Assembly: GCA_000004985.1 (NCBI GenBank)
Contig: GG739099.1
From: Naegleria gruberi
Taxonomy: Eukaryota
Direction: 5' to 3' (one strand)
Length of the DNA stretch: 7,960 nucleotides
Below are positions 1-7,960 of this stretch, in pieces; the first letter of the stretch is position 1, and the number at the start of each line of letters is the position of its first letter. The position numbers and the translations under genes were made by a program. The notes below the pieces were generated by a model, which saw only the letters and a list, made by a program, of their open reading frames with translations, was not told where the DNA came from and did no database searches.

Positions 1-12
1 TCAAAATTTCTC

Positions 13-777
13 TCAAGAGTCAGGTTCACATCCTGGACAGATATTATCTCTTTGTGGTGCAACTCCAAACTTTTCGACATGTTGAGTAAATTTCAAATAA
101 TGGTCAATAAATGATTTTTGATAAAGACCTCCAGGATAAATGATATCTCTATAGAGATCGAATGGAGAGCTTACTGATGCAACTGCAACCAAACTCTTGT
201 GATTCAATGAAACTAAGAAATCACTAACCATTCCATCATACGAAATACCTGTTGATACAATCTTTCCATTACTGAATTTTTGCTTTACAACCCAATCCAT
301 AATTTCTCCAAAATCTTGAACTTCATCTCTATGAAAATCATAAGGACGACTTCCAAAACTTGCACCAGTACCTCTAGTATCACATGAAACCACAGCATAT
401 CCTCTGGCAACAAACTTCTTGAATGGAATGCCTCTAATACTGAGCTTTTCTCCAAACAAGTAATTGAATGGAAAATTCACTTTAAATGATCTATTATATC
501 TAGTAATATGCAAAAGAGTTGGTAATCTATGATTTTCATTCACTGCTCTATAAGGTAAATACAAATCACAGGCAATCTTTACACCATCCCTCATTGTTAA
601 ATATTCATCACTAAAAATTGTTCCATCATTTTCATACAACATTCGGGGAAAGTAATTCTTTGATCGGAATGTTGGACAATCACTGCCAAGCACACCACAA
701 CAACTCACGATCAACAATCCCAAAACCAAATACAATACAAAATTCATAACATTTCCTTGTGAATTGTTTTTATGCAT
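13..777 (-). CDS. CocE/NonD-family alpha/beta hydrolase (peptidase S15, X-Pro dipeptidyl-peptidase-like), N-terminal part with signal peptide. The 3' end lies beyond the window start.
   Basis: 254-aa ORF on the minus strand with no stop before the window edge. The N-terminus MHKNNSQGNVMNFVLYLVLGLLIVSCCGVLG is a hydrophobic signal or anchor. An alternative start is the Met at 747. The motifs MRDGVKIACDLYLP, GYAVVSCDTRGTGASFG, DEVQDFGEIMDWVVKQKFSNGKIVSTGISYDGM (GxSxG nucleophile elbow) and SSPFDLYRD…YPGG are collinear with the Rhodococcus cocaine esterase CocE N-terminal hydrolase domain (MRDGVRLAVDLYRP / GYAVVIQDTRG / GNVGMFGVSYLG / ADLYRAPWYGPGG). Confidence 0.85.
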   Translation of the reverse strand: MHKNNSQGNVMNFVLYLVLGLLIVSCCGVLGSDCPTFRSKNYFPRMLYENDGTIFSDEYLTMRDGVKIACDLYLPYRAVNENHRLPTLLHITRYNRSFKVNFPFNYLFGEKLSIRGIPFKKFVARGYAVVSCDTRGTGASFGSRPYDFHRDEVQDFGEIMDWVVKQKFSNGKIVSTGISYDGMVSDFLVSLNHKSLVAVASVSSPFDLYRDIIYPGGLYQKSFIDHYLKFTQHVEKFGVAPQRDNICPGCEPDS

Positions 778-1059
778 TTTTTTTTAATTTTTGATATTTC
801 ATTAAAGAACTTAAACATTTGAAAATCTAATGTGCAAGTGGCATGATTGCAAATATGAAATTCCCATTATTGAGAATGGCCTAGACCAGGCAGAGCAAAG
901 AAAACAATTCCCAATTGAACAATTTTCTGAACCGCACTCGATACAACAAACACTATTCCCATAGACGAATCTTGGGAGAATTAATGCTAAAGTTCTTGAG
1001 GTGATTGGGAGGGCAATTGCTGAATAACTCTCCTAACACACTACAATCAAGATGAACTT
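778..1059. promoter_or_regulatory. Divergent intergenic region, presumed to hold promoters for both flanking genes, between the hydrolase (minus) and the F-box-like ORF (plus).
   Basis: 282-bp AT-rich non-coding spacer between two divergently oriented ORF starts. A short motif aattccca(t/a)t occurs twice (about 849-860 and 908-918). No specific element was identified. Confidence 0.3.
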
Positions 1060-1746
1060 TTGAATCTTGTTCCTTTTGTTACAATTAAACATTTTTCACT
1101 GAAATTGTCTCATGTTACCGACACAAATCTCTCTACAAAACTAGCAGATTCCGACAATAATCCTTCGTTATGGAGCCAAATACCTAGCGAATTAATTATT
1201 CACATTGCCATGTATTGTCAATTGGGAGAGCTGGTTGGTTTTTCACAAGCAAATTCTGCACATTTGAAAATACTTTTTAATCAAGAGCCGAGAGAAAAGA
1301 AAATTGAAAAGCCTGTAAATGATGAAAGTGTAGATTTTCATTATGTTCAAACTCATATCTGGAAACCTTTAGTTTGTTTCTATTTTCCAAGATTCGAAAA
1401 GGCACTTAACATTAAGAATTGGATGCATGTTTTGAGAAGGAGAAAAGCTCACATTAAGATTCATGGTAATGATTTCAGAATTCCATCTGAAACATGGAAT
1501 GATGAAGACAAAAGTTTGAGTAGTATTAGTTTTATTGAGAATTGTGAATATATTTACAAGTGCCCATTACAATTCAGCATGTTAGAGGATACTTGGTCAA
1601 ATGAAAGTTTTTGTAAGGAGTGTAAAAAGACTGTGTATAATGTTCAAGATGTTGAGACATTCAAAGATTATTCTTCAAAAGGATATTGTGTTTCTCTGGG
1701 ATATGACCAGTTCAAAGAGGGAGAAATGTGCTACTTTGATGATTAA
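1060..1746 (+). CDS. Hypothetical protein with an F-box-like motif and a Cys-containing C-terminal region.
   Basis: 228-aa ORF. Residues about 36-72, SLWSQIPSELIIHIAMYCQLGELVGFSQANSAHLKIL, fit the F-box pattern (L..IP.EL..HI…L……KIL). The C-terminus has spaced Cys residues (CEYIYKC…CKEC…C…C). It is convergent with the PPR gene (stop TAA at 1744-1746). There is no other recognisable domain and no upstream ATG in frame. Confidence 0.45.
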   Translation: MNLVPFVTIKHFSLKLSHVTDTNLSTKLADSDNNPSLWSQIPSELIIHIAMYCQLGELVGFSQANSAHLKILFNQEPREKKIEKPVNDESVDFHYVQTHIWKPLVCFYFPRFEKALNIKNWMHVLRRRKAHIKIHGNDFRIPSETWNDEDKSLSSISFIENCEYIYKCPLQFSMLEDTWSNESFCKECKKTVYNVQDVETFKDYSSKGYCVSLGYDQFKEGEMCYFDD

Positions 1747-1932
1747 AGTAATTTCTGAACTAGTTCAGTTTCGCATTCCTAAAAACTAATTATGTTCGTT
1801 CCAAAAACGATGCCAATATCAATATTGAAAATTGTCTGTTATGCTATTCCAATAACATCGATAGTTTGTAGTGTTCAGTCTTAATAACATGATTCATTTA
1901 TGCACCTATTGTCATGCTAGATCTGATCCTCC

Positions 1933-3654
1933 TTACCAATATCCGTCACAACTACATTTACCATCTTTAAAATGGTGATATCTATTTGCATCTCTAATAA
2001 TTATTTCAACATCCATCACTTTTGAAATGAATTCTGTGGCAGTATGACAATCATTGCAAACACGAAGATTTGCCGCTAAAATAATTGATTTTCTCTTTGG
2101 ATTCAAAACAAATGCATGAGCTGTTGCTGTCTTCTCAGCATGTCTACAAAGTGAATCTAATTTTTCTTCTTCAGTTAATAATTTTGAGTTAGTTACCCAT
2201 CTAGTATCTGGCTCAAAACCAGCTTGGATTATTTTTCTGTAAATCTCCTCTCTCATTTTCTCAATTTCCTTAAATCTTTCATATTTTTTTGATCCAGAAA
2301 CAAATTGGTATGATTTACCATCCTCTTCCTGATACACAATTCCTGGTATCTTTTTAATTCCATTTTCAATCATTAATTGTCTTATATTGTCAGCTTTTTC
2401 AACATTATTGAACTTTCTACATCCTGCCATTAAAGCACTCCACAAAGAATAATTCATTCTTTCGTTAATTATTTTTTCTGCCTCATGAAATCTTCCTGAA
2501 CGGGCAAAGACATCAACCATTACACAGTCTACAATTACTGATGGATTATGGTTGTATTTTGTCTTCATTTCTCCATAAAGTTGATTCGCCTCATCAATCA
2601 TTCCACAATGTGAAAATGTGTTCAGCATGATTGTGAATGTGTTCTCGTTCATTTCAACGTTCTTAGCAACCATTTCATTAAATAAATTCATGGCTTGTGT
2701 TCCTTTTCCATGTTGAGCGTAACATGACAACATGTTATTATATGTTATGATGGATAGACGTTTTTGGGCTGATTCTTCGACAAGCTTTTCAAATAGTTGT
2801 TGTGCAGTTGATTGATAAGCAATTCTTGAATAAAAGTAGATCATAACACTGACTATCTCCTCATGAACATCCATTCCTTTTAGTTTGAGTTCATCAATAA
2901 TATCCAGTCCCATCTTTCTAGCAAAATATTCTCCACATCCAGCCAACAATATGAGGTAGGTTATCTTATCTGGTTCAATATGTTCCTTCATCTCATTAAA
3001 AACCACCATTGCTTTGTTCAGTCCATATTCTATTGTAGATGGGTTTTGGGTATTTGTTGTACTTTGAATATGTGCTTGAATTAAACAATTCCAAATAGCA
3101 ACATCGTTCATTAATCCCTTTGATTTCAATTGTTCACATTCCTCAATTGAAACCTCTGGATGTCCACATTTTGTGTAAAAGTTGACAATAGATGCTAAAA
3201 GTTCAGAAGAGTGATCTTTCAAGGTGCCAGTTGCAAGTTTGTGAATTGCCTTTCCTTCTTCAAACAATTTTGAATCAGCACACGCTGTGAGTAAAATGTT
3301 AAAAGTGGTAGAGTTTGGTTCAACACCACAATCTTGCATTTCTGTGATTATTTTAATTGATTTTGGAACTTCCTTAGTTTGAATATGTGCTTGAATTAAA
3401 CAATTCCAAACAGCAACATTGTTCATTAATCCCTTCGATTGTAATTTTTCACATTCTCCAATTGACACCTCTGGATGTCCACATTTTGTATAAAAACTAA
3501 TAATTGATGTCAAAAGTTCAGTAGAGCAATCTTTAACATTTTCTATTGCTTGTTCATGAATCAATTTACCTTCTTCAAACAAATTAAAATCAGTACATGC
3601 CTTAAGTATAATAGTATAGGTTGTAGAATCAGGGTTCAATCCAAATTGTTGCAT
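1933..3654 (-). CDS. PLS-class PPR protein with DYW deaminase domain, C-terminal segment. It contains two full P-L-S triplet repeats plus P2-L2-S2, a short E region and DYW, and has its own stop.
   Basis: 573-aa ORF. Motifs match the plant PLS consensus: P (VWNCLIQAHIQ…EMQDCGVEPN), L (TFNILLTACADSKLFEEGKAIHKLA) and S-like (LLASIVNFYTKCGHPEVSIEECEQL, compare YAKCG). P2 is TYNNMLSCYAQHGKGTQAMNLFNEM, compare WNAMIAGYAQHGHGKEALELFEQM. Then come L2/S2 (CGMIDEANQLYGEM…, VMVDVFARSGRFHEAEKII), an E-like region (LWSALMAGCRKFNNVEKADNIRQLMIENGIKKI) and DYW. The frame is open upstream into the N gap at 3695, so the 'M' at 3654 is an internal Met of a repeat unit. Confidence 0.9.
   Translation of the reverse strand: MQQFGLNPDSTTYTIILKACTDFNLFEEGKLIHEQAIENVKDCSTELLTSIISFYTKCGHPEVSIGECEKLQSKGLMNNVAVWNCLIQAHIQTKEVPKSIKIITEMQDCGVEPNSTTFNILLTACADSKLFEEGKAIHKLATGTLKDHSSELLASIVNFYTKCGHPEVSIEECEQLKSKGLMNDVAIWNCLIQAHIQSTTNTQNPSTIEYGLNKAMVVFNEMKEHIEPDKITYLILLAGCGEYFARKMGLDIIDELKLKGMDVHEEIVSVMIYFYSRIAYQSTAQQLFEKLVEESAQKRLSIITYNNMLSCYAQHGKGTQAMNLFNEMVAKNVEMNENTFTIMLNTFSHCGMIDEANQLYGEMKTKYNHNPSVIVDCVMVDVFARSGRFHEAEKIINERMNYSLWSALMAGCRKFNNVEKADNIRQLMIENGIKKIPGIVYQEEDGKSYQFVSGSKKYERFKEIEKMREEIYRKIIQAGFEPDTRWVTNSKLLTEEEKLDSLCRHAEKTATAHAFVLNPKRKSIILAANLRVCNDCHTATEFISKVMDVEIIIRDANRYHHFKDGKCSCDGYW
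1936..2346 (-). other. DYW-type cytidine deaminase domain, from the PG box to the C-terminus.
   Basis: PGIVYQEEDGKSYQFVSGSK (PG box, compare PGCSWIEV…HVFVAGD). HAE at 2142..2134 (HxE zinc/catalytic motif, compare HSEKLAIAFGLI). CNDCH at 2058..2044 (CxDCH). Then …RDANRYHHFKDGKCSCDGYW followed by the stop at 1933-1935 (compare RFHHFKDGSCSCGDYW). Confidence 0.88.
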
Positions 3655-3694
3655 TTCTGTGATTATTTCAATTGCTTTTTGAGGCTCATTGTTT

Positions 3695-3744
3695 NNNNNN
3701 NNNNNNNNNNNNNNNNNNNNNNNNNNNNNNNNNNNNNNNNNNNN
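3695..3744. other. Assembly gap of 50 N inside the PPR-DYW coding region.
   Basis: Run of n. Reading frames are open on both flanks (…KMKTKG | gap | NNEPQKAIEIITEMQQFG…). Confidence 0.95.
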
Positions 3745-3745
3745 A

Positions 3746-4351
3746 TCCTTTGGTTTTCATCTTTTCAAATTGATCAATAGCTATTATTGGATGTCCGCAT
3801 TTTGTGTAAAAATTAATTATACTATTGTTCAACTCTATTGTAGGATTATTGAGCACTTGACCAGATGCTTGATGCAGTAATTTACCTTCTTCAAATAATT
3901 TTGAATCAGCACATGCTTTAAGTAAAATGTTAAAAGTGGTAGAGTTTGGTTCAATACCATAATCTTGCATTTCTGTGATTACTTCAATTGCCTGTCGAAC
4001 TTCCTTATTTTGAATATATGCTTGAATTAAACAATTCCAAACAATATTGTTCATTAATCCTTTCGATTTCAATTGTTCACATTCCTTAATGGCTGTTTCT
4101 GGATGTCCACATTTTGTGTAAAAGTTGACAATAGATGCTAAAAGTTCAGAAGAGTAATCTTTCAAGGTGCCAGTTGCAAGTTTGTGAATTGCCTTTCCTT
4201 CTTCAAACAATTTTGAATCAGCACACGCTGTGAGTAAAATGTTAAAAGTGGTAGAGTTTGGTTCAACACCATAATCTTGCATTTCTGTGATTATTTCAAT
4301 TGCCTGTCGAACTTCCTTATTTTGAATATATGCTTGAATTAAACAATTCCA
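3746..4351 (-). CDS. Same PPR-DYW gene, middle segment of about two P-L-S triplet units. The frame is open into the 50-N gap on its 3' side, and a frameshift lies on its 5' side.
   Basis: Translation is WNCLIQAYIQNKEVRQAIEIITEMQDYGVEPNSTTFNILLTACADSKLFEEGKAIHKLATGTLKDYSSELLASIVNFYTKCGHPETAIKECEQLKSKGLMNNIVWNCLIQAYIQNKEVRQAIEVITEMQDYGIEPNST…TKCGHPIIAIDQFEKMKTKG, then the gap. In this frame a TAA at 4378..4376 closes it upstream, so homology resumes only from the W codon at 4351. The 'M' at 4282 used by the ORF track is an internal repeat Met. Confidence 0.8.
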
Positions 4352-5393
4352 TCCATAATACTTTTTGATATCTTTTTACATTCATTAATTGCAATATCTG
4401 GATGTCCACATTTTGTGTAAAAATTAATAATTGATGTCAAAAGTTTAAGAGAGCTATTATCTCTCAAAGTATTATTTGCAATTTTGTGAATCAATATTCC
4501 CTCCTTATATAATTTCAACTTAGCGCATGCGGTAAGCAAAATGGAGAATGTGGTAGCGTTTGGAGTAACCTTGAATTGTTTCATTTCAGTAACTGTGTCG
4601 ATGGCTTTTTGTATTTCATTTATTTGAATGTATGCTTCAACTAGACATGTAAAAGAAACAACATTCATTAATCCCTTTGATTTCATCTTTTCACATTCGT
4701 TGATTGCAATCTCTGGATGTCCACATTTTGTATAAAAATTAATAATGGATGTCAATAGTTCAACAGAGCAATTATCTTTCAAAGTGTTAGTTGTAATTTT
4801 GTGAATCAACTTTCCTTCTGCAAATAACTTGGTATTAGCACAAGCTGTTATGAGAATGTTAAAAGTTGCCGAATCTGGACAAATACCATTATCTTTCATT
4901 TCATGAATAACATCAATCGCTTTCTTAATATTGTTCTCTTGAATATATGCTTGAATTAAACTATTCCATGTTATGATTGTCATCCATTTTTGTTGTTTCA
5001 CTAATTCAATTTCTTCTATTACCAACTCTGGTTTTCTTAATTTCAATGCAAATGATATAATTGTCGTTGATAATTGAGGACTTGCTAAATTACTCTTTTT
5101 TACAAGTTGGTAAAGTGTCATTCCAACTTGAATGTTTTTCTTAACAGTGGCTGCTTTTAAAAGTGGGATATAAATTGCATAGTTTGGTTCAATATCTTTG
5201 CCTTTCATATTCAACACAATTGCTAATGCTCTTTCCAAATCATCATTCCAAATACAATTATTAATAAAGTGAGTGTATAAAAATACATTCATTGCGCCAT
5301 GTTGCTCTAATTCATTAACAATTTGTTCACAAAATTCAACTTGNGTATTACCTACAGAGCAAACTTTAAGTATGGCAGTTAATGTAAATAAAT
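4339..5393 (-). CDS. Same PPR-DYW gene, N-terminal-ward segment. It has divergent P-type motifs, then two P-L-S triplets, and ends at a premature stop created by the frameshift. The 5' end is lost in the 1.5-kb N gap.
   Basis: 317-aa ORF from the Met at 5292. The frame stays open upstream to the gap edge (…TAILKVCSVGNTQVEFCEQIVNELEQHGA-MNVFLYTHFINNCIWNDDLERALAIVLNMKGKDIEPN…); the n at 5344 falls in ACN, which is Thr whatever the base. The last S-like motif reads LLTSIINFYTKCGHPDIAINECKKISKSIMDGIV* instead of the canonical …NECEKMKSKGLMNVV…WNCLIQ. That indicates roughly 12 nt missing plus a 1-nt frame change between 4342 and 4375. Confidence 0.8.
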
Positions 5394-6895
5394 NNNNNNN
5401 NNNNNNNNNNNNNNNNNNNNNNNNNNNNNNNNNNNNNNNNNNNNNNNNNNNNNNNNNNNNNNNNNNNNNNNNNNNNNNNNNNNNNNNNNNNNNNNNNNNN
5501 NNNNNNNNNNNNNNNNNNNNNNNNNNNNNNNNNNNNNNNNNNNNNNNNNNNNNNNNNNNNNNNNNNNNNNNNNNNNNNNNNNNNNNNNNNNNNNNNNNNN
5601 NNNNNNNNNNNNNNNNNNNNNNNNNNNNNNNNNNNNNNNNNNNNNNNNNNNNNNNNNNNNNNNNNNNNNNNNNNNNNNNNNNNNNNNNNNNNNNNNNNNN
5701 NNNNNNNNNNNNNNNNNNNNNNNNNNNNNNNNNNNNNNNNNNNNNNNNNNNNNNNNNNNNNNNNNNNNNNNNNNNNNNNNNNNNNNNNNNNNNNNNNNNN
5801 NNNNNNNNNNNNNNNNNNNNNNNNNNNNNNNNNNNNNNNNNNNNNNNNNNNNNNNNNNNNNNNNNNNNNNNNNNNNNNNNNNNNNNNNNNNNNNNNNNNN
5901 NNNNNNNNNNNNNNNNNNNNNNNNNNNNNNNNNNNNNNNNNNNNNNNNNNNNNNNNNNNNNNNNNNNNNNNNNNNNNNNNNNNNNNNNNNNNNNNNNNNN
6001 NNNNNNNNNNNNNNNNNNNNNNNNNNNNNNNNNNNNNNNNNNNNNNNNNNNNNNNNNNNNNNNNNNNNNNNNNNNNNNNNNNNNNNNNNNNNNNNNNNNN
6101 NNNNNNNNNNNNNNNNNNNNNNNNNNNNNNNNNNNNNNNNNNNNNNNNNNNNNNNNNNNNNNNNNNNNNNNNNNNNNNNNNNNNNNNNNNNNNNNNNNNN
6201 NNNNNNNNNNNNNNNNNNNNNNNNNNNNNNNNNNNNNNNNNNNNNNNNNNNNNNNNNNNNNNNNNNNNNNNNNNNNNNNNNNNNNNNNNNNNNNNNNNNN
6301 NNNNNNNNNNNNNNNNNNNNNNNNNNNNNNNNNNNNNNNNNNNNNNNNNNNNNNNNNNNNNNNNNNNNNNNNNNNNNNNNNNNNNNNNNNNNNNNNNNNN
6401 NNNNNNNNNNNNNNNNNNNNNNNNNNNNNNNNNNNNNNNNNNNNNNNNNNNNNNNNNNNNNNNNNNNNNNNNNNNNNNNNNNNNNNNNNNNNNNNNNNNN
6501 NNNNNNNNNNNNNNNNNNNNNNNNNNNNNNNNNNNNNNNNNNNNNNNNNNNNNNNNNNNNNNNNNNNNNNNNNNNNNNNNNNNNNNNNNNNNNNNNNNNN
6601 NNNNNNNNNNNNNNNNNNNNNNNNNNNNNNNNNNNNNNNNNNNNNNNNNNNNNNNNNNNNNNNNNNNNNNNNNNNNNNNNNNNNNNNNNNNNNNNNNNNN
6701 NNNNNNNNNNNNNNNNNNNNNNNNNNNNNNNNNNNNNNNNNNNNNNNNNNNNNNNNNNNNNNNNNNNNNNNNNNNNNNNNNNNNNNNNNNNNNNNNNNNN
6801 NNNNNNNNNNNNNNNNNNNNNNNNNNNNNNNNNNNNNNNNNNNNNNNNNNNNNNNNNNNNNNNNNNNNNNNNNNNNNNNNNNNNNNNNNNNNNNN
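5394..6895. other. Assembly gap of 1502 N. It contains the 5' end of the PPR-DYW gene.
   Basis: Run of n. The minus-strand ORF is still open at 5393. Sequence after the gap (6896 onward) has stops in all minus-strand frames. Confidence 0.95.
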
Positions 6896-7590
6896 CCTAG
6901 CTAAATATATAATAATTATTTAAATATGAATGTGCACAAATATGAACAAATTTCGGAATACATAGTTAGATCCAATATTTCAAAAGAGACAACAACTTAC
7001 TTTCATAGAGAACATGAGAACGACCACAATACATCCTCAAAACTCTCTCCTGATCATCAATCAACGTACAAGGCTTAAATACTTGACGATCATTCACATC
7101 AGCAACCCGAGCCAATTGCATACTTGCATTATTTCCTGCACTCTTTAATTGATGATCATCTTAATCAGAGGTTCATGCCCAAAAAACCTACATAAAATTG
7201 TTTCATATTTTTTTTTAAAATAAAAATAGAATATGACAAGCAGAGTTCATATTTGTAATTTCATTATAAACATTTAATTAATAATTGAACATAGTAAAGT
7301 GTTGATATTATGTAATTTACAAAGAGACGTTGTTTTAGTCAGTGAAGGATAAAGATCACATCTTGCCATAACAAAGGCAATAACGTTTAGTCACTTGAAG
7401 AACTATGGATGAGTCATTTTACTGTCAAATGTCAACTCATCACAAAAAAAATTGATCAAAGTGTTACCAACATCATCCTATTAGTAATAATCACAACAAT
7501 TTTATTTTACTACTAAACAACACACTTTCATCAAAATTTCCCATCAACATTGACATCCTCATAATATTAATATATAAATAACAAACAATA

Positions 7591-7959
7591 ATGGATTCTA
7601 AATTAGTTATTCGTGTCTACTTTGTAGATGATTCCTTCAAAACCATTGCCGTTAGTCCAACCATCAGTGCTCGTGATTTATCGATTGTTGTCGCTGATAA
7701 GATTGAATTGGAACAACGTGAAACTTTTGCGCTCTTTTTCTACAAGAACGGAGAGTGTAGATGTTTAGATGATGATGAACAACCGTGCAAATTGATGGTC
7801 TATGAAACTGTTGGTTCTGATGCAGACTTTCAAAAGTATGTGAATGATAAACAAGAATGGGAAAAATTAAAGAAAGACTGGGAGAAGGACTCTAAATTAG
7901 TATTCAAGAGAAGAGTCTTTTTAAAGCACAAGGCAATTCCACGGAACAAGAAAAGTTTT
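7591..7959 (+). CDS. N-terminus of a protein with a ubiquitin-like FERM-N/Ras-association-type fold signature. It continues past the window end.
   Basis: ATG at 7591 is the first Met after an in-frame TAA at 7579. 123 codons follow with no stop to 7959: MDSKLVIRVYFVDDSFKTIAVSPTISARDLSIVVADKIELEQRETFALFFYKNGECRCLDDDEQPCKLMVYET…KLVFKRRVFLKHK. The pattern (β-strand start, 'hot' residue, …LxFKRRxFL) resembles the FERM F1 lobe / RA domain motif (L.F.FR.KFF). It was not in the supplied ORF track, presumably because it lacks a stop. A TATA-like tatataaata sits at 7571-7580. Confidence 0.55.
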   Translation, partial: MDSKLVIRVYFVDDSFKTIAVSPTISARDLSIVVADKIELEQRETFALFFYKNGECRCLDDDEQPCKLMVYETVGSDADFQKYVNDKQEWEKLKKDWEKDSKLVFKRRVFLKHKAIPRNKKSF

Positions 7960-7960
7960 G

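What the first reader, a model, noticed from the sequence alone, without database searches (positions are those of the whole stretch)
4342..4375. Local frame disruption inside one repeat unit: genuine pseudogenisation versus collapsed-repeat assembly error
The unit at 4390-4340 is about 36 bp shorter than its neighbours; ggatgtcc landmarks are 279 bp apart there, against 310-335 elsewhere. It also changes frame by one nucleotide. The upstream frame therefore hits TAA at 4341..4339 (…NECKKISKSIMDGIV*), and homology (WNCLIQAYIQ…) resumes in another frame from 4351.

Trying to read this as an intron fails. The only GT…AG candidate (gtaaaaagatatcaaaaag) is 19 nt long, and removing it does not restore the WNCLIQ frame.

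Everything else in the gene is intact. The site lies inside a high-identity tandem array bounded by N gaps, so an assembly or basecalling error is at least as likely as a real truncating mutation. If the shift is real, the DYW domain would not be translated from the upstream start.
Basis: seen in the sequence. Interest (0 to 1): 0.5.

Follow-up and report, generated by a model that had tools for sequence, protein, structure and literature searches.

The report
Ten-base deletion breaks Naegleria PPR-DYW gene
In a tiny draft scaffold of the amoeba Naegleria gruberi, an otherwise intact plant-type RNA-editing (PPR-DYW) gene has lost one copy of a 10-base direct repeat, which shifts the reading frame; this is an ordinary young null allele or a draft-sequence flaw, and only the raw reads can say which.

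Summary
The frame break is real in the deposited sequence. The upstream frame ends at TAA 4341..4339 and WNCLIQ resumes at 4351 in the -1 frame.

The window is a complete 7,960-bp Naegleria gruberi scaffold. It carries NAEGRDRAFT_76707, and a 177/178-identical twin gene lies on a 395-kb scaffold. The gene is an unannotated PLS-class PPR protein with an intact DYW deaminase domain. It is cut by two N gaps.

The lesion is exactly the loss of one copy of a 10-nt direct repeat, GGAATTGTTT. Putting it back gives ...SIMDGIVWNCLIQ..., colinear with the neighbouring unit, and a stop-free 552-codon frame. The rest of the gene has no stops in 1,137 codons.

This signature fits a physical slipped-repeat deletion, meaning a very young null allele or copy. 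I rate that about 0.55. A base-calling error or a collapsed repeat unit fits less well. A consensus or cloning artefact in this fragmented mini-scaffold stays plausible at about 0.38. An intron and programmed frameshifting are not supported.

The finding is ordinary and of low interest. The Sanger traces, or a PCR across 4250-4450, would settle it.

The parts
4341..4350 (-). Surviving copy of the 10-nt direct repeat GGAATTGTTT, which marks the deletion site. Its last three bases plus the next two form ...GTT TAA.
   Evidence: re-inserting one GGAATTGTTT here gives ECKKISKSIMDGIVWNCLIQAYIQ and a stop-free 552-codon frame over 5391..3745; a 10-nt gap relative to the other units.
4339..4341 (-). 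Premature TAA that ends the upstream frame.
4342..5391 (-). Segment A: 350 codons of PPR repeats. The frame is open right up to the 1,502-N gap, so the start codon is not in the assembled sequence.
   Evidence: translation. (0 stops against 35 and 39 in the two off-frames). (51% identical to paralogue P0052 from its residue 124). (Pfam PPR_2, 2.2e-40).
3745..4351 (-). Segment B: 202 codons of PPR repeats in the -1 frame. It begins WNCLIQAYIQ.
   Evidence: 0 stops against 15 and 22 in the off-frames..
4098..4351 (-). High-identity mosaic block immediately 3' of the break. The first 57 nt are identical to the next unit (from 4039). The following roughly 170 nt differ by one mismatch from the unit three repeats away (from 3408).
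   Evidence: mismatch offsets. (D1 reference copy 4147-4352, 95% to 3204-3409).
4029..4045 (-). Homologous S-to-P junction in the neighbouring unit. It carries both copies of the direct repeat (ATTGTTT GGA ATTGTTT, period 10).
   Evidence: one of only two period-10 direct repeats of 7 nt or more in 1933..5393.
3695..3744 (.). 50-N assembly gap inside the gene. The flanks are in repeat register, and 49 nt would keep the frame.
   Evidence: this unit measures 316 nt with the Ns against 315.
1933..3693 (-). Segment C: 586 codons holding the last PLS repeats, an E-like region and the DYW deaminase domain (about 2220..1936). It carries HAEK, CNDCH and a C-terminal CSCDGYW.
   Evidence: DYW_deaminase 1.2e-33, profile positions 1-93 of 93. 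(motifs). (0 stops against 46 and 67 in the off-frames). (55% identical to N. gruberi P0001).
5394..6895 (.). 1,502-N gap. By comparison with the paralogue it hides about 123 N-terminal codons, including any targeting peptide.
5344..5344 (.). Single ambiguous base (N) inside the coding frame, 50 nt from the contig end.
1210..1746 (+). Neighbouring gene NAEGRDRAFT_76707. It identifies the window as a whole N. gruberi scaffold.

Best explanation
The window is a small, redundant scaffold of the Naegleria gruberi NEG-M draft genome.

Its minus strand carries one long PLS-class PPR gene that ends in a DYW cytidine-deaminase domain. This is the plant-type, site-specific mitochondrial C-to-U RNA-editing factor family already described in this amoeba. 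In that family the PPR array reads the RNA upstream of the target C, and the DYW domain deaminates it.

In this copy one of two adjacent copies of the 10-bp sequence GGAATTGTTT has been physically lost. The site is the boundary between an S motif and the next P motif. The likely cause is strand slippage, or a recombination or gene-conversion event 10 bp out of register between repeat units.

The loss shifts the frame by -1 and creates TAA at 4341..4339. This copy would therefore make only an N-terminal PPR fragment without the E/DYW part.

Because the other 1,137 or more codons are untouched, the deletion must be very young. It is most likely a null allele (or a duplicate copy) in a heterozygous laboratory clone.

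Shown here: the anatomy of the lesion, the intactness of the rest of the gene, and the identity of the scaffold. Inferred: that the deletion exists in the amoeba's DNA rather than only in a clone or in the consensus, that it is allele-specific, and that the gene functions in RNA editing.
For: - Re-inserting one GGAATTGTTT at 4350..4341 restores ...ECKKISKSIMDGIVWNCLIQAYIQ.... This is colinear with the neighbouring unit ...ECEQLKSKGLMNNIVWNCLIQAYIQ... and gives a stop-free 552-codon frame.
- The neighbouring unit has ATTGTTT twice at a 10-nt period at the homologous place. Only two such repeats exist in the 3.4-kb gene. A random 10-nt loss would rarely land there.
- BLASTP aligns the upstream-frame tail KKISKSIMDGIV with EKIKQSELMNVI of the paralogue. 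The upstream frame is therefore homologous right up to the stop, and exactly WNC(L) is missing.
- The distance from KCG to the next P-motif start is 22-23 residues in the 12 units measured in the window and in paralogues P0052 and P0001. With the repair it is 21.
- The break coincides with the start of a near-identical block. One out-of-register recombination event would produce both the block boundary and the deletion.
- There are no other lesions: 0 stops in 349+202+586 codons against 7-11% stops in the off-frames. HxE, CxxCH and the C-terminal CSCDGYW are intact.
- The scaffold's base-level accuracy looks good elsewhere. The neighbouring 178-aa gene differs at a single residue from its twin on a 395-kb scaffold.
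- Only two editing sites are known against about 11 DYW genes in N. gruberi (PMC4202320). Heterozygosity of N. gruberi is reported (PMC9928731). A tolerated null allele is therefore plausible.
- The closest paralogue is also split into two gene models. The first ends ...ELSQHNY*, where the repeat units read ELSNTIINFY. That is what a 1-nt shift would give (my back-translation).
Against: - No reads, no second assembly and no transcript could be examined.
- The site lies in a 1,649-bp contig between two N gaps, on a 7,960-bp leftover scaffold of a Sanger draft. There is an ambiguous base in the same contig. Coverage is probably only a few reads.
- In such conditions a deletion in a single clone, or a consensus path that switches reads at a misaligned tandem repeat, could give the same sequence.
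- An intact catalytic domain and the absence of any second lesion are also exactly what an artefact predicts.
- The paralogue's break is inferred from protein sequence only.
Confidence: 0.55

Rival explanations
1. Draft-sequence artefact. The amoeba's gene is one continuous frame of about 1,270 codons or more. The 10 nt were lost in a plasmid or fosmid clone in E. coli, or when the consensus was built from very few, poorly aligned reads at a short tandem repeat on the edge of a homogenised repeat block.
For: - The window is a 7,960-bp leftover scaffold made of three short contigs (3.7, 1.65 and 1.07 kb). It has 50-N and 1,502-N gaps and a stray N, all inside or next to this gene.
- It duplicates, at 177/178 residues, a gene that also sits on a 395-kb scaffold.
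- The source is a Sanger draft.
- Everything else in the gene is intact, including the deaminase active site.
- The break lies about 600 nt from one contig end and about 1,040 nt from the other, roughly where the tails of end-anchored reads would meet (inference).
- The block just 3' of the break is a mosaic of two other units, as a pile-up of reads from different units could produce.
Against: - Base-calling errors are typically 1-nt indels, not the exact loss of one 10-nt repeat copy.
- A collapsed repeat would join units in register and in frame.
- Assemblers do not join reads on overlaps of 7-10 nt (established practice; not tested here).
- The rest of the scaffold shows no other frameshift in 3.4 kb of coding sequence, and only one amino-acid difference from the twin gene. 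Its general error rate is therefore low.
Confidence: 0.38
2. The break is bridged or used biologically. Either the ribosome shifts -1 between 4375 and 4342 and makes the full-length protein, or the two frames are expressed as separate proteins: a PPR-only protein and a shorter PPR-DYW protein starting at an internal Met such as 4282. The second case would resemble plant editing factors whose DYW domain is supplied in trans.
For: - Both frames are long and intact.
- The closest paralogue is also annotated as a PPR-only model (P0052) plus a PPR-DYW model (P0001) on one 1.0-Mb scaffold.
- The shift needed is -1, and the permitted interval contains A-rich runs (TCA AAA AGT).
Against: - There is no X XXY YYZ heptamer in the permitted interval (sequence).
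- The 103 nt from the site onward fold no better than shuffles (z = +0.56).
- The paralogue's break is at a different position in the repeat (the L/S boundary) and of a different kind, so no recoding site is conserved.
- The lesion is fully explained as a simple repeat-copy loss.
- There is no evidence of a promoter or transcript for the downstream part.
Confidence: 0.04
3. A very short or unusual spliceosomal intron removes the stop and restores the frame.
For: Fifty-eight GT..AG pairs of 400 nt or less, with length = 2 mod 3, give an open joined frame. One example is the 29-nt GTATTATGG...TTCAAG.
Against: - The unit is shorter than its neighbours, not longer, so there is no extra sequence to remove.
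- Every listed candidate deletes conserved repeat residues (WNCLIQA, or part or all of a PLS unit), and none keeps the repeat register.
- The would-be intron sequences are themselves stop-free coding repeats.
- That many GT..AG pairs is expected in AT-rich repetitive DNA.
Confidence: 0.01

Closest known systems
DYW-type PPR genes of Naegleria gruberi (Knoop and Rudinger 2010, as cited in PMC4202320). The nearest paralogue is annotated as two models: P0052 (749 aa, PPR only) plus P0001 (822 aa, PPR-DYW).
   Same: - Same species.
- Same architecture: a unique N-terminal region, then roughly 104-residue P-L-S units with ...NFYTKCG...WNCLIQAYIQ..., then the ...EYGLNKA... linker, an E-like region and DYW.
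- 51-55% identity over full coverage.
- The paralogue's array is also interrupted by an apparent frameshift.
   Different: - This locus has no gene model in the protein collections searched.
- Its repeat units are more diverged (60-95%).
- Its break is a 10-nt repeat-copy loss at the S/P boundary, not the apparent 1-nt shift at the L/S boundary seen in the paralogue.
Land-plant PLS-class PPR-DYW RNA-editing factors. Moss DYW-type PPR proteins alone edit C to U in E. coli (PMC6397227), and DYW domain structures are available (PMC7611903).
   Same: - P-L-S repeat organisation.
- A DYW_deaminase domain matched end to end (1.2e-33).
- HxE and CxxCH zinc-site signatures and a C-terminal CxCxxYW.
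   Different: - The organism is a protist, not a plant.
- The C-terminal tripeptide is GYW rather than DYW.
- The S motif is 3-4 residues longer than in the plant proteins (22-23 against 19 residues between KCG and the W of the next motif).
- The E motif scores below the Pfam cut-off (25.3 against 27.3 bits).
- The target site is unknown.
- This copy is frameshifted.
Slipped-strand mispairing, meaning deletion between short direct repeats (the classic Streisinger / Levinson-Gutman mechanism; named from general knowledge).
   Same: Exactly one repeat period (10 nt) is missing, one copy survives, and the homologous site in the neighbouring unit carries both copies.
   Different: - The ancestral two-copy state of this particular unit is reconstructed, not observed.
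- The same footprint could arise in a bacterial clone.
Programmed -1 ribosomal frameshift sites (dnaX or retroviral type).
   Same: A -1 shift would be needed, and an A-rich stretch lies in the permitted interval.
   Different: There is no canonical slippery heptamer, no downstream structure and no conservation in the paralogue.

Membership tests
PLS-class PPR protein with DYW domain (RNA-editing factor type) | Tandem pentatricopeptide repeats in a P-L-S pattern | tested here: met
   Pfam PPR, PPR_2 and PPR_3 match all three segments. The repaired A+B segment scores PPR_2 2.6e-77. The period is 312-316 nt, about 104-105 residues, which is one P+L+S triplet.
PLS-class PPR protein with DYW domain (RNA-editing factor type) | C-terminal DYW cytidine-deaminase domain with HxE and CxxC(H) zinc-binding signatures | tested here: met
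   PF14432 at 1.2e-33, covering profile positions 1-93 of 93. HAEK, CNDCH and a terminal CSCDGYW are present.
PLS-class PPR protein with DYW domain (RNA-editing factor type) | E motif(s) between the PPR array and the DYW domain | tested here: inconclusive
   PF20431 E_motif scores 25.3 bits, below the 27.3 cut-off. A PG-box-like PGIVYQEEDGKSYQF is present.
PLS-class PPR protein with DYW domain (RNA-editing factor type) | One continuous reading frame linking the PPR array to the DYW domain | tested here: not met
   In the deposited sequence the frame is broken at 4341..4339. It is also interrupted by N gaps at 3695-3744 and 5394-6895. The frame is restored by adding 10 nt.
PLS-class PPR protein with DYW domain (RNA-editing factor type) | Organelle targeting and site-specific C-to-U editing activity | not testable with these tools
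   The N-terminus lies in the 1,502-N gap. Two mitochondrial editing sites are known in N. gruberi, but none has been assigned to a factor (PMC4202320).
Slipped-repeat (direct-repeat-mediated) deletion | The missing length equals the repeat period, and one copy is retained at the junction | tested here: met
   the 10-nt copy GGAATTGTTT is retained at 4350..4341. The neighbouring unit has the repeat at a 10-nt period at the homologous site.
Slipped-repeat (direct-repeat-mediated) deletion | The deletion is present in genomic DNA, supported by independent reads or an amplicon | not testable with these tools
Old (decayed) pseudogene | Several independent disabling lesions and loss of conserved residues | tested here: not met
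   There is a single lesion, 0 other stops in 1,137 codons, and the catalytic motifs are intact.
Collapsed tandem-repeat assembly | Loss or merger of whole repeat units, joined in register | tested here: not met
   The shortfall is 10 nt (plus a separate 3 nt) within a unit, not a multiple of about 315 nt. The flanking units are distinct sequences.
Programmed -1 ribosomal frameshift | Slippery heptamer X XXY YYZ in the permitted interval | tested here: not met
   The interval 4375..4342 reads AAA GAT ATC AAA AAG TAT TAT GGA TGG ... and contains no such heptamer in the upstream frame.
Programmed -1 ribosomal frameshift | A stable downstream RNA structure | tested here: not met
   The minimum free energy is -9.6 kcal/mol against a shuffle mean of -11, z = +0.56.
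Spliceosomal intron | Extra GT..AG-bounded sequence whose removal restores colinearity with homologues | tested here: not met
   The unit is shorter than its neighbours. None of the listed GT..AG removals keeps the repeat register.

The most novel reading that the evidence does not exclude
Long PLS-DYW genes of Naegleria gruberi are recurrently, and functionally, divided by frameshifts inside their homogenised repeat arrays. This locus and its closest paralogue (P0052 plus P0001) would both be examples. The cell would then make a PPR-only RNA-binding protein and a separate PPR-DYW deaminase that cooperate in trans, or it would rejoin the two by ribosomal frameshifting.
Probability: 0.03. Interest if true: 0.55.

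Novelty: already known. Interest (0 to 1): 0.12.

Why it matters
It matters little beyond curation.

It shows that one N. gruberi DYW-type PPR gene is missing from the public protein set. Its locus sits on a gap-ridden leftover scaffold with a 10-nt frameshift. Counts of editing factors in this species (10-11 genes against two known sites) therefore depend on how such loci are treated.

If the deletion is real, it is a snapshot of how concerted evolution in PPR repeat arrays can kill a gene through a small out-of-register slip. It would also fit the idea that some of the surplus DYW genes are dispensable.

If it is an artefact, the gene is simply one more intact editing factor, and the scaffold needs repair.

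Tried and rejected
- **Intron.** I enumerated all GT..AG removals of 400 nt or less that reopen the frame (58). None of those listed keeps the repeat register, and the unit is too short rather than too long.
- **-1 frameshifting.** There is no heptamer and no downstream structure.
- **Single-base miscall as the whole story.** Any 1-nt insertion between 4378 and 4340 reopens the frame. But that leaves a unit lacking WNC or the NIV-type residues. The 10-nt repeat-copy repair is the only one tried that is colinear with the neighbouring unit and with the paralogue.
- **Microhomology at ATGGA/TGGA.** My first alignment placed the gap between ATGGA and TGGAAT, with no repeat at the junction. This was superseded by the equivalent placement that exposes the 10-nt repeat.
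- **Finding the same locus elsewhere.** Two protein searches gave only paralogues at 55% identity or less. Exact-protein look-ups of N. gruberi models and window ORFs returned 'not on record'. Junction patterns found nothing in JGI metagenomes (two scans) or GTDB genomes (one scan).
- **Synteny through the neighbouring CocE/NonD ORF.** The best hit is a 7.4-kb metagenome contig (L001) that is not syntenic.
- **Primary papers.** Rudinger 2011 and Fritz-Laylin 2010 are not held. I did not look up Knoop & Rudinger 2010.
Full report
**What the window is**

The window is AT-rich, with about 31-34% G+C in its assembled parts. It contains three N runs: 3695-3744 (50 N), 5344 (1 N) and 5394-6895 (1,502 N).

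The ORF at 1210..1746(+) is 178/178 identical to Naegleria gruberi NAEGRDRAFT_76707 (XP_002668377.1). The contig recorded for that protein is 7,960 bp, which is exactly the window length. The window is therefore one complete small scaffold of the Sanger-sequenced NEG-M draft. That draft is described as 40.9 Mb and 35% G+C in PMC9928731.

A twin protein, NAEGRDRAFT_69407, is 177/178 identical and lies on a 395,411-bp scaffold. The window is therefore a redundant scaffold, either allelic or unmerged, or else a very recent duplicate. Heterozygosity of N. gruberi is reported in the literature (PMC9928731).

**The gene**

The minus strand carries a single long PPR gene in three pieces:
- Segment A runs 5391..4342. 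It is 350 codons and is open right up to the big gap.
- Segment B runs 4351..3745. It is 202 codons and lies in another frame.
- Segment C runs 3693..1933. It is 586 codons and lies beyond the 50-N gap.

Pfam finds PPR repeats in all three segments. It also finds a full-length DYW deaminase domain at the C-terminus (1.2e-33, profile positions 1-93 of 93). The HxE (HAEK) and CxxCH (CNDCH) signatures and the terminal CSCDGYW are intact.

The coding frame has 0 stops in 349+202+586 codons. The off-frames carry 7-11% stops. The whole gene has therefore been under selection until very recently.

The closest proteins are two N. gruberi models on one 1.0-Mb scaffold:
- P0052 is 749 aa, PPR only, and 51-52% identical to segment A (alone, or joined to B).
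- P0001 is 822 aa, PPR-DYW, and 55% identical to segment C.

Segment A starts at residue 124 of P0052. About 123 N-terminal codons are therefore hidden in the 1,502-N gap.

No protein of 90% identity or more exists in the collection searched, so this gene has no public model. The family is the known set of plant-type DYW PPR proteins of N. gruberi. About 11 genes are reported against two verified mitochondrial C-to-U sites (PMC4202320).

**Checking the observation**

The measurements are not. GGATGTCC occurs at 3158, 3473, 3789, 4101, 4400 and 4715, which gives spacings of 315, 316, 312, 299 and 315. The odd unit is thus 13-16 nt short, not 36. No interval of 279 nt exists.

A MAFFT alignment of the units shows two separate gaps. 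One is an in-frame 3-nt gap. The other is a 10-nt gap at the S-to-P motif junction.

**Anatomy of the lesion**

The minus strand reads ...ATT ATG GAT GGA ATT GTT TAA TTC AAG.... The neighbouring unit reads ...TTA ATG AAC AAT ATT GTT TGG AAT TGT TTA ATT CAA G....

The neighbouring unit contains ATTGTTT twice, 10 nt apart. The broken unit has one copy, within GGAATTGTTT at 4350..4341.

Re-inserting one GGAATTGTTT gives ECKKISKSIMDGIVWNCLIQAYIQ. This is colinear with ECEQLKSKGLMNNIVWNCLIQAYIQ, and it opens a stop-free 552-codon frame from 5391 to 3745.

Only two period-10 direct repeats of 7 nt or more occur in the whole 3.4-kb gene. One of them is this homologous site in the adjacent unit.

BLASTP independently aligns the upstream tail KKISKSIMDGIV with EKIKQSELMNVI of the paralogue. 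The upstream frame therefore stays homologous up to the stop.

The distance from KCG to the next P-motif start is 22-23 residues in the 12 units measured in the window and in P0052 and P0001. With the repair it is 21.

The gap can be slid across the repeat.

**Context of the break**

Immediately 3' of the break lies a block that is a mosaic of two other units:
- The first 57 nt are identical to the next unit.
- The following roughly 170 nt differ by one mismatch from the unit three repeats away.

This is the pattern of gene conversion in a tandem array. One recombination event that paired 10 nt out of register at the ATTGTTT repeats would explain both the block boundary and the deletion.

**Alternatives tested**

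Intron: 58 GT..AG removals of 400 nt or less reopen the frame. All of those listed delete conserved residues or part or all of a repeat unit. The unit is also short, not long.

Programmed -1 frameshift: the permitted interval (4375..4342) has no X XXY YYZ heptamer. The downstream 103 nt fold no better than shuffles (z = +0.56). The paralogue's break lies elsewhere in the repeat.

Single-base error: any 1-nt insertion between 4378 and 4340 reopens the frame. None restores colinearity as the 10-nt repair does.

Collapsed repeat: the shortfall is not a multiple of the unit, and the flanking units are distinct sequences.

**Real or artefact?**

This cannot be settled here. Scans of metagenomes and prokaryotic genomes for the junction found nothing.

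For an artefact:
- The site is in a 1,649-bp contig between two gaps, on a leftover 7,960-bp scaffold.
- An ambiguous base lies nearby.
- Everything else in the gene is intact.

For a genuine deletion:
- The exact loss of one 10-nt repeat copy at a rare period-10 repeat is the footprint of slippage in DNA. It is not the footprint of base-calling (typically 1-nt indels) or of unit collapse (in register).
- The rest of the scaffold shows no other frameshift in 3.4 kb of coding sequence.
- The neighbouring gene differs from its twin at one residue only.
- A heterozygous, long-cultured clone with about 11 DYW genes for two known sites can tolerate a null allele.

I put a genuine, very young deletion at about 0.55. 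This could be an allele or a duplicate copy. I put a clone or consensus artefact at about 0.38, and biological bridging or use of the split at about 0.04.

**A related observation**

The closest paralogue is annotated as two abutting models. P0052 ends ...KVFTIELSQHNY, where its other units read ...FTIELSNTIINFYTKCG. Back-translation (TCx AAC ACA ATT ATT AA with one base inserted gives CAA CAC AAT TAT TAA) shows that this is what a 1-nt shift would produce. P0001 then starts at an internal Met of a P motif.

Arrays of this gene pair therefore seem prone to frame breaks, or to assembly trouble. The two breaks differ in place and kind, which argues against a conserved recoding signal.

**Verdict**

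This is an ordinary finding. It concerns a known gene family in a known organism and a small, mechanistically mundane lesion. The question of real allele against draft error can be answered in an afternoon with the original traces or a PCR.

Noticed in passing
window 1-7960 (whole); 1210-1746 (+): The window is an entire 7,960-bp N. gruberi scaffold carrying NAEGRDRAFT_76707. A 177/178-identical twin gene (NAEGRDRAFT_69407) lies on a 395,411-bp scaffold. This scaffold is therefore a redundant allelic or unmerged piece, or a very recent duplication.
   Followed up: partly
N. gruberi proteins P0052 and P0001 (1,001,995-bp scaffold; not in the window): The closest paralogue is split into a PPR-only model ending ...ELSQHNY* and a PPR-DYW model starting at an internal Met. 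The odd C-terminus is what a 1-nt frameshift of the repeat consensus ELSNTIINFY would give. P0052 also has one unit lacking 4 residues (KKH-DSTTF).
   Followed up: partly
window 13-777 (-): An unannotated 254-codon ORF with a signal-peptide-like start and a Peptidase_S15 (CocE/NonD hydrolase) domain (1.1e-33). It has no N. gruberi protein match. Its best relative is an uncharacterised eukaryote-like metagenome contig (67%), and the named ones among its other hits are bacterial (35-46%). It may be of bacterial origin and is missing from the annotation.
   Followed up: partly
window 3695-3744: The 50-N gap sits in repeat register. The flanks need 49 nt (plus any multiple of about 315) to stay in frame, so segments B and C look out of frame only because of the placeholder length.
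   Followed up: partly
window 4098-4351 versus 3155-3408 and 3983-4039: The unit after the break is a mosaic. Its first 57 nt are identical to the next unit. The following roughly 170 nt differ by one mismatch from the unit 943 nt away. This suggests gene conversion (concerted evolution) within the PPR array.
   Followed up: yes
window 6993-7150 (-): A short open frame (...MQLARVADVNDRQVFKPCTLIDDQERVLRMYCGRSHVLYE) is followed by GTAAGT, like an exon with a splice donor, and lies next to the 1,502-N gap. It has only a weak, sub-threshold RCC1-repeat match (E = 0.019).
   Followed up: partly
window 7591-7959 (+): An ORF starting MDSKLVIRVYF... with an RA-like (Ras-association) domain (RA_2, 3.1e-11) runs off the end of the scaffold.
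   Followed up: no
window 1060-1746 (+): The neighbouring 178-aa protein belongs to a sizeable family. There are 102 cluster representatives with E up to 0.001, and the cluster of the second-best hit includes a 1,952-aa N. gruberi protein. It has no Pfam domain. The C-terminal part is Cys-rich.
   Followed up: no
window 5344: A single ambiguous base (N) lies inside the coding frame, 50 nt from the contig end. It is direct evidence of a weak consensus in the same 1,649-bp contig that holds the frameshift.
   Followed up: no
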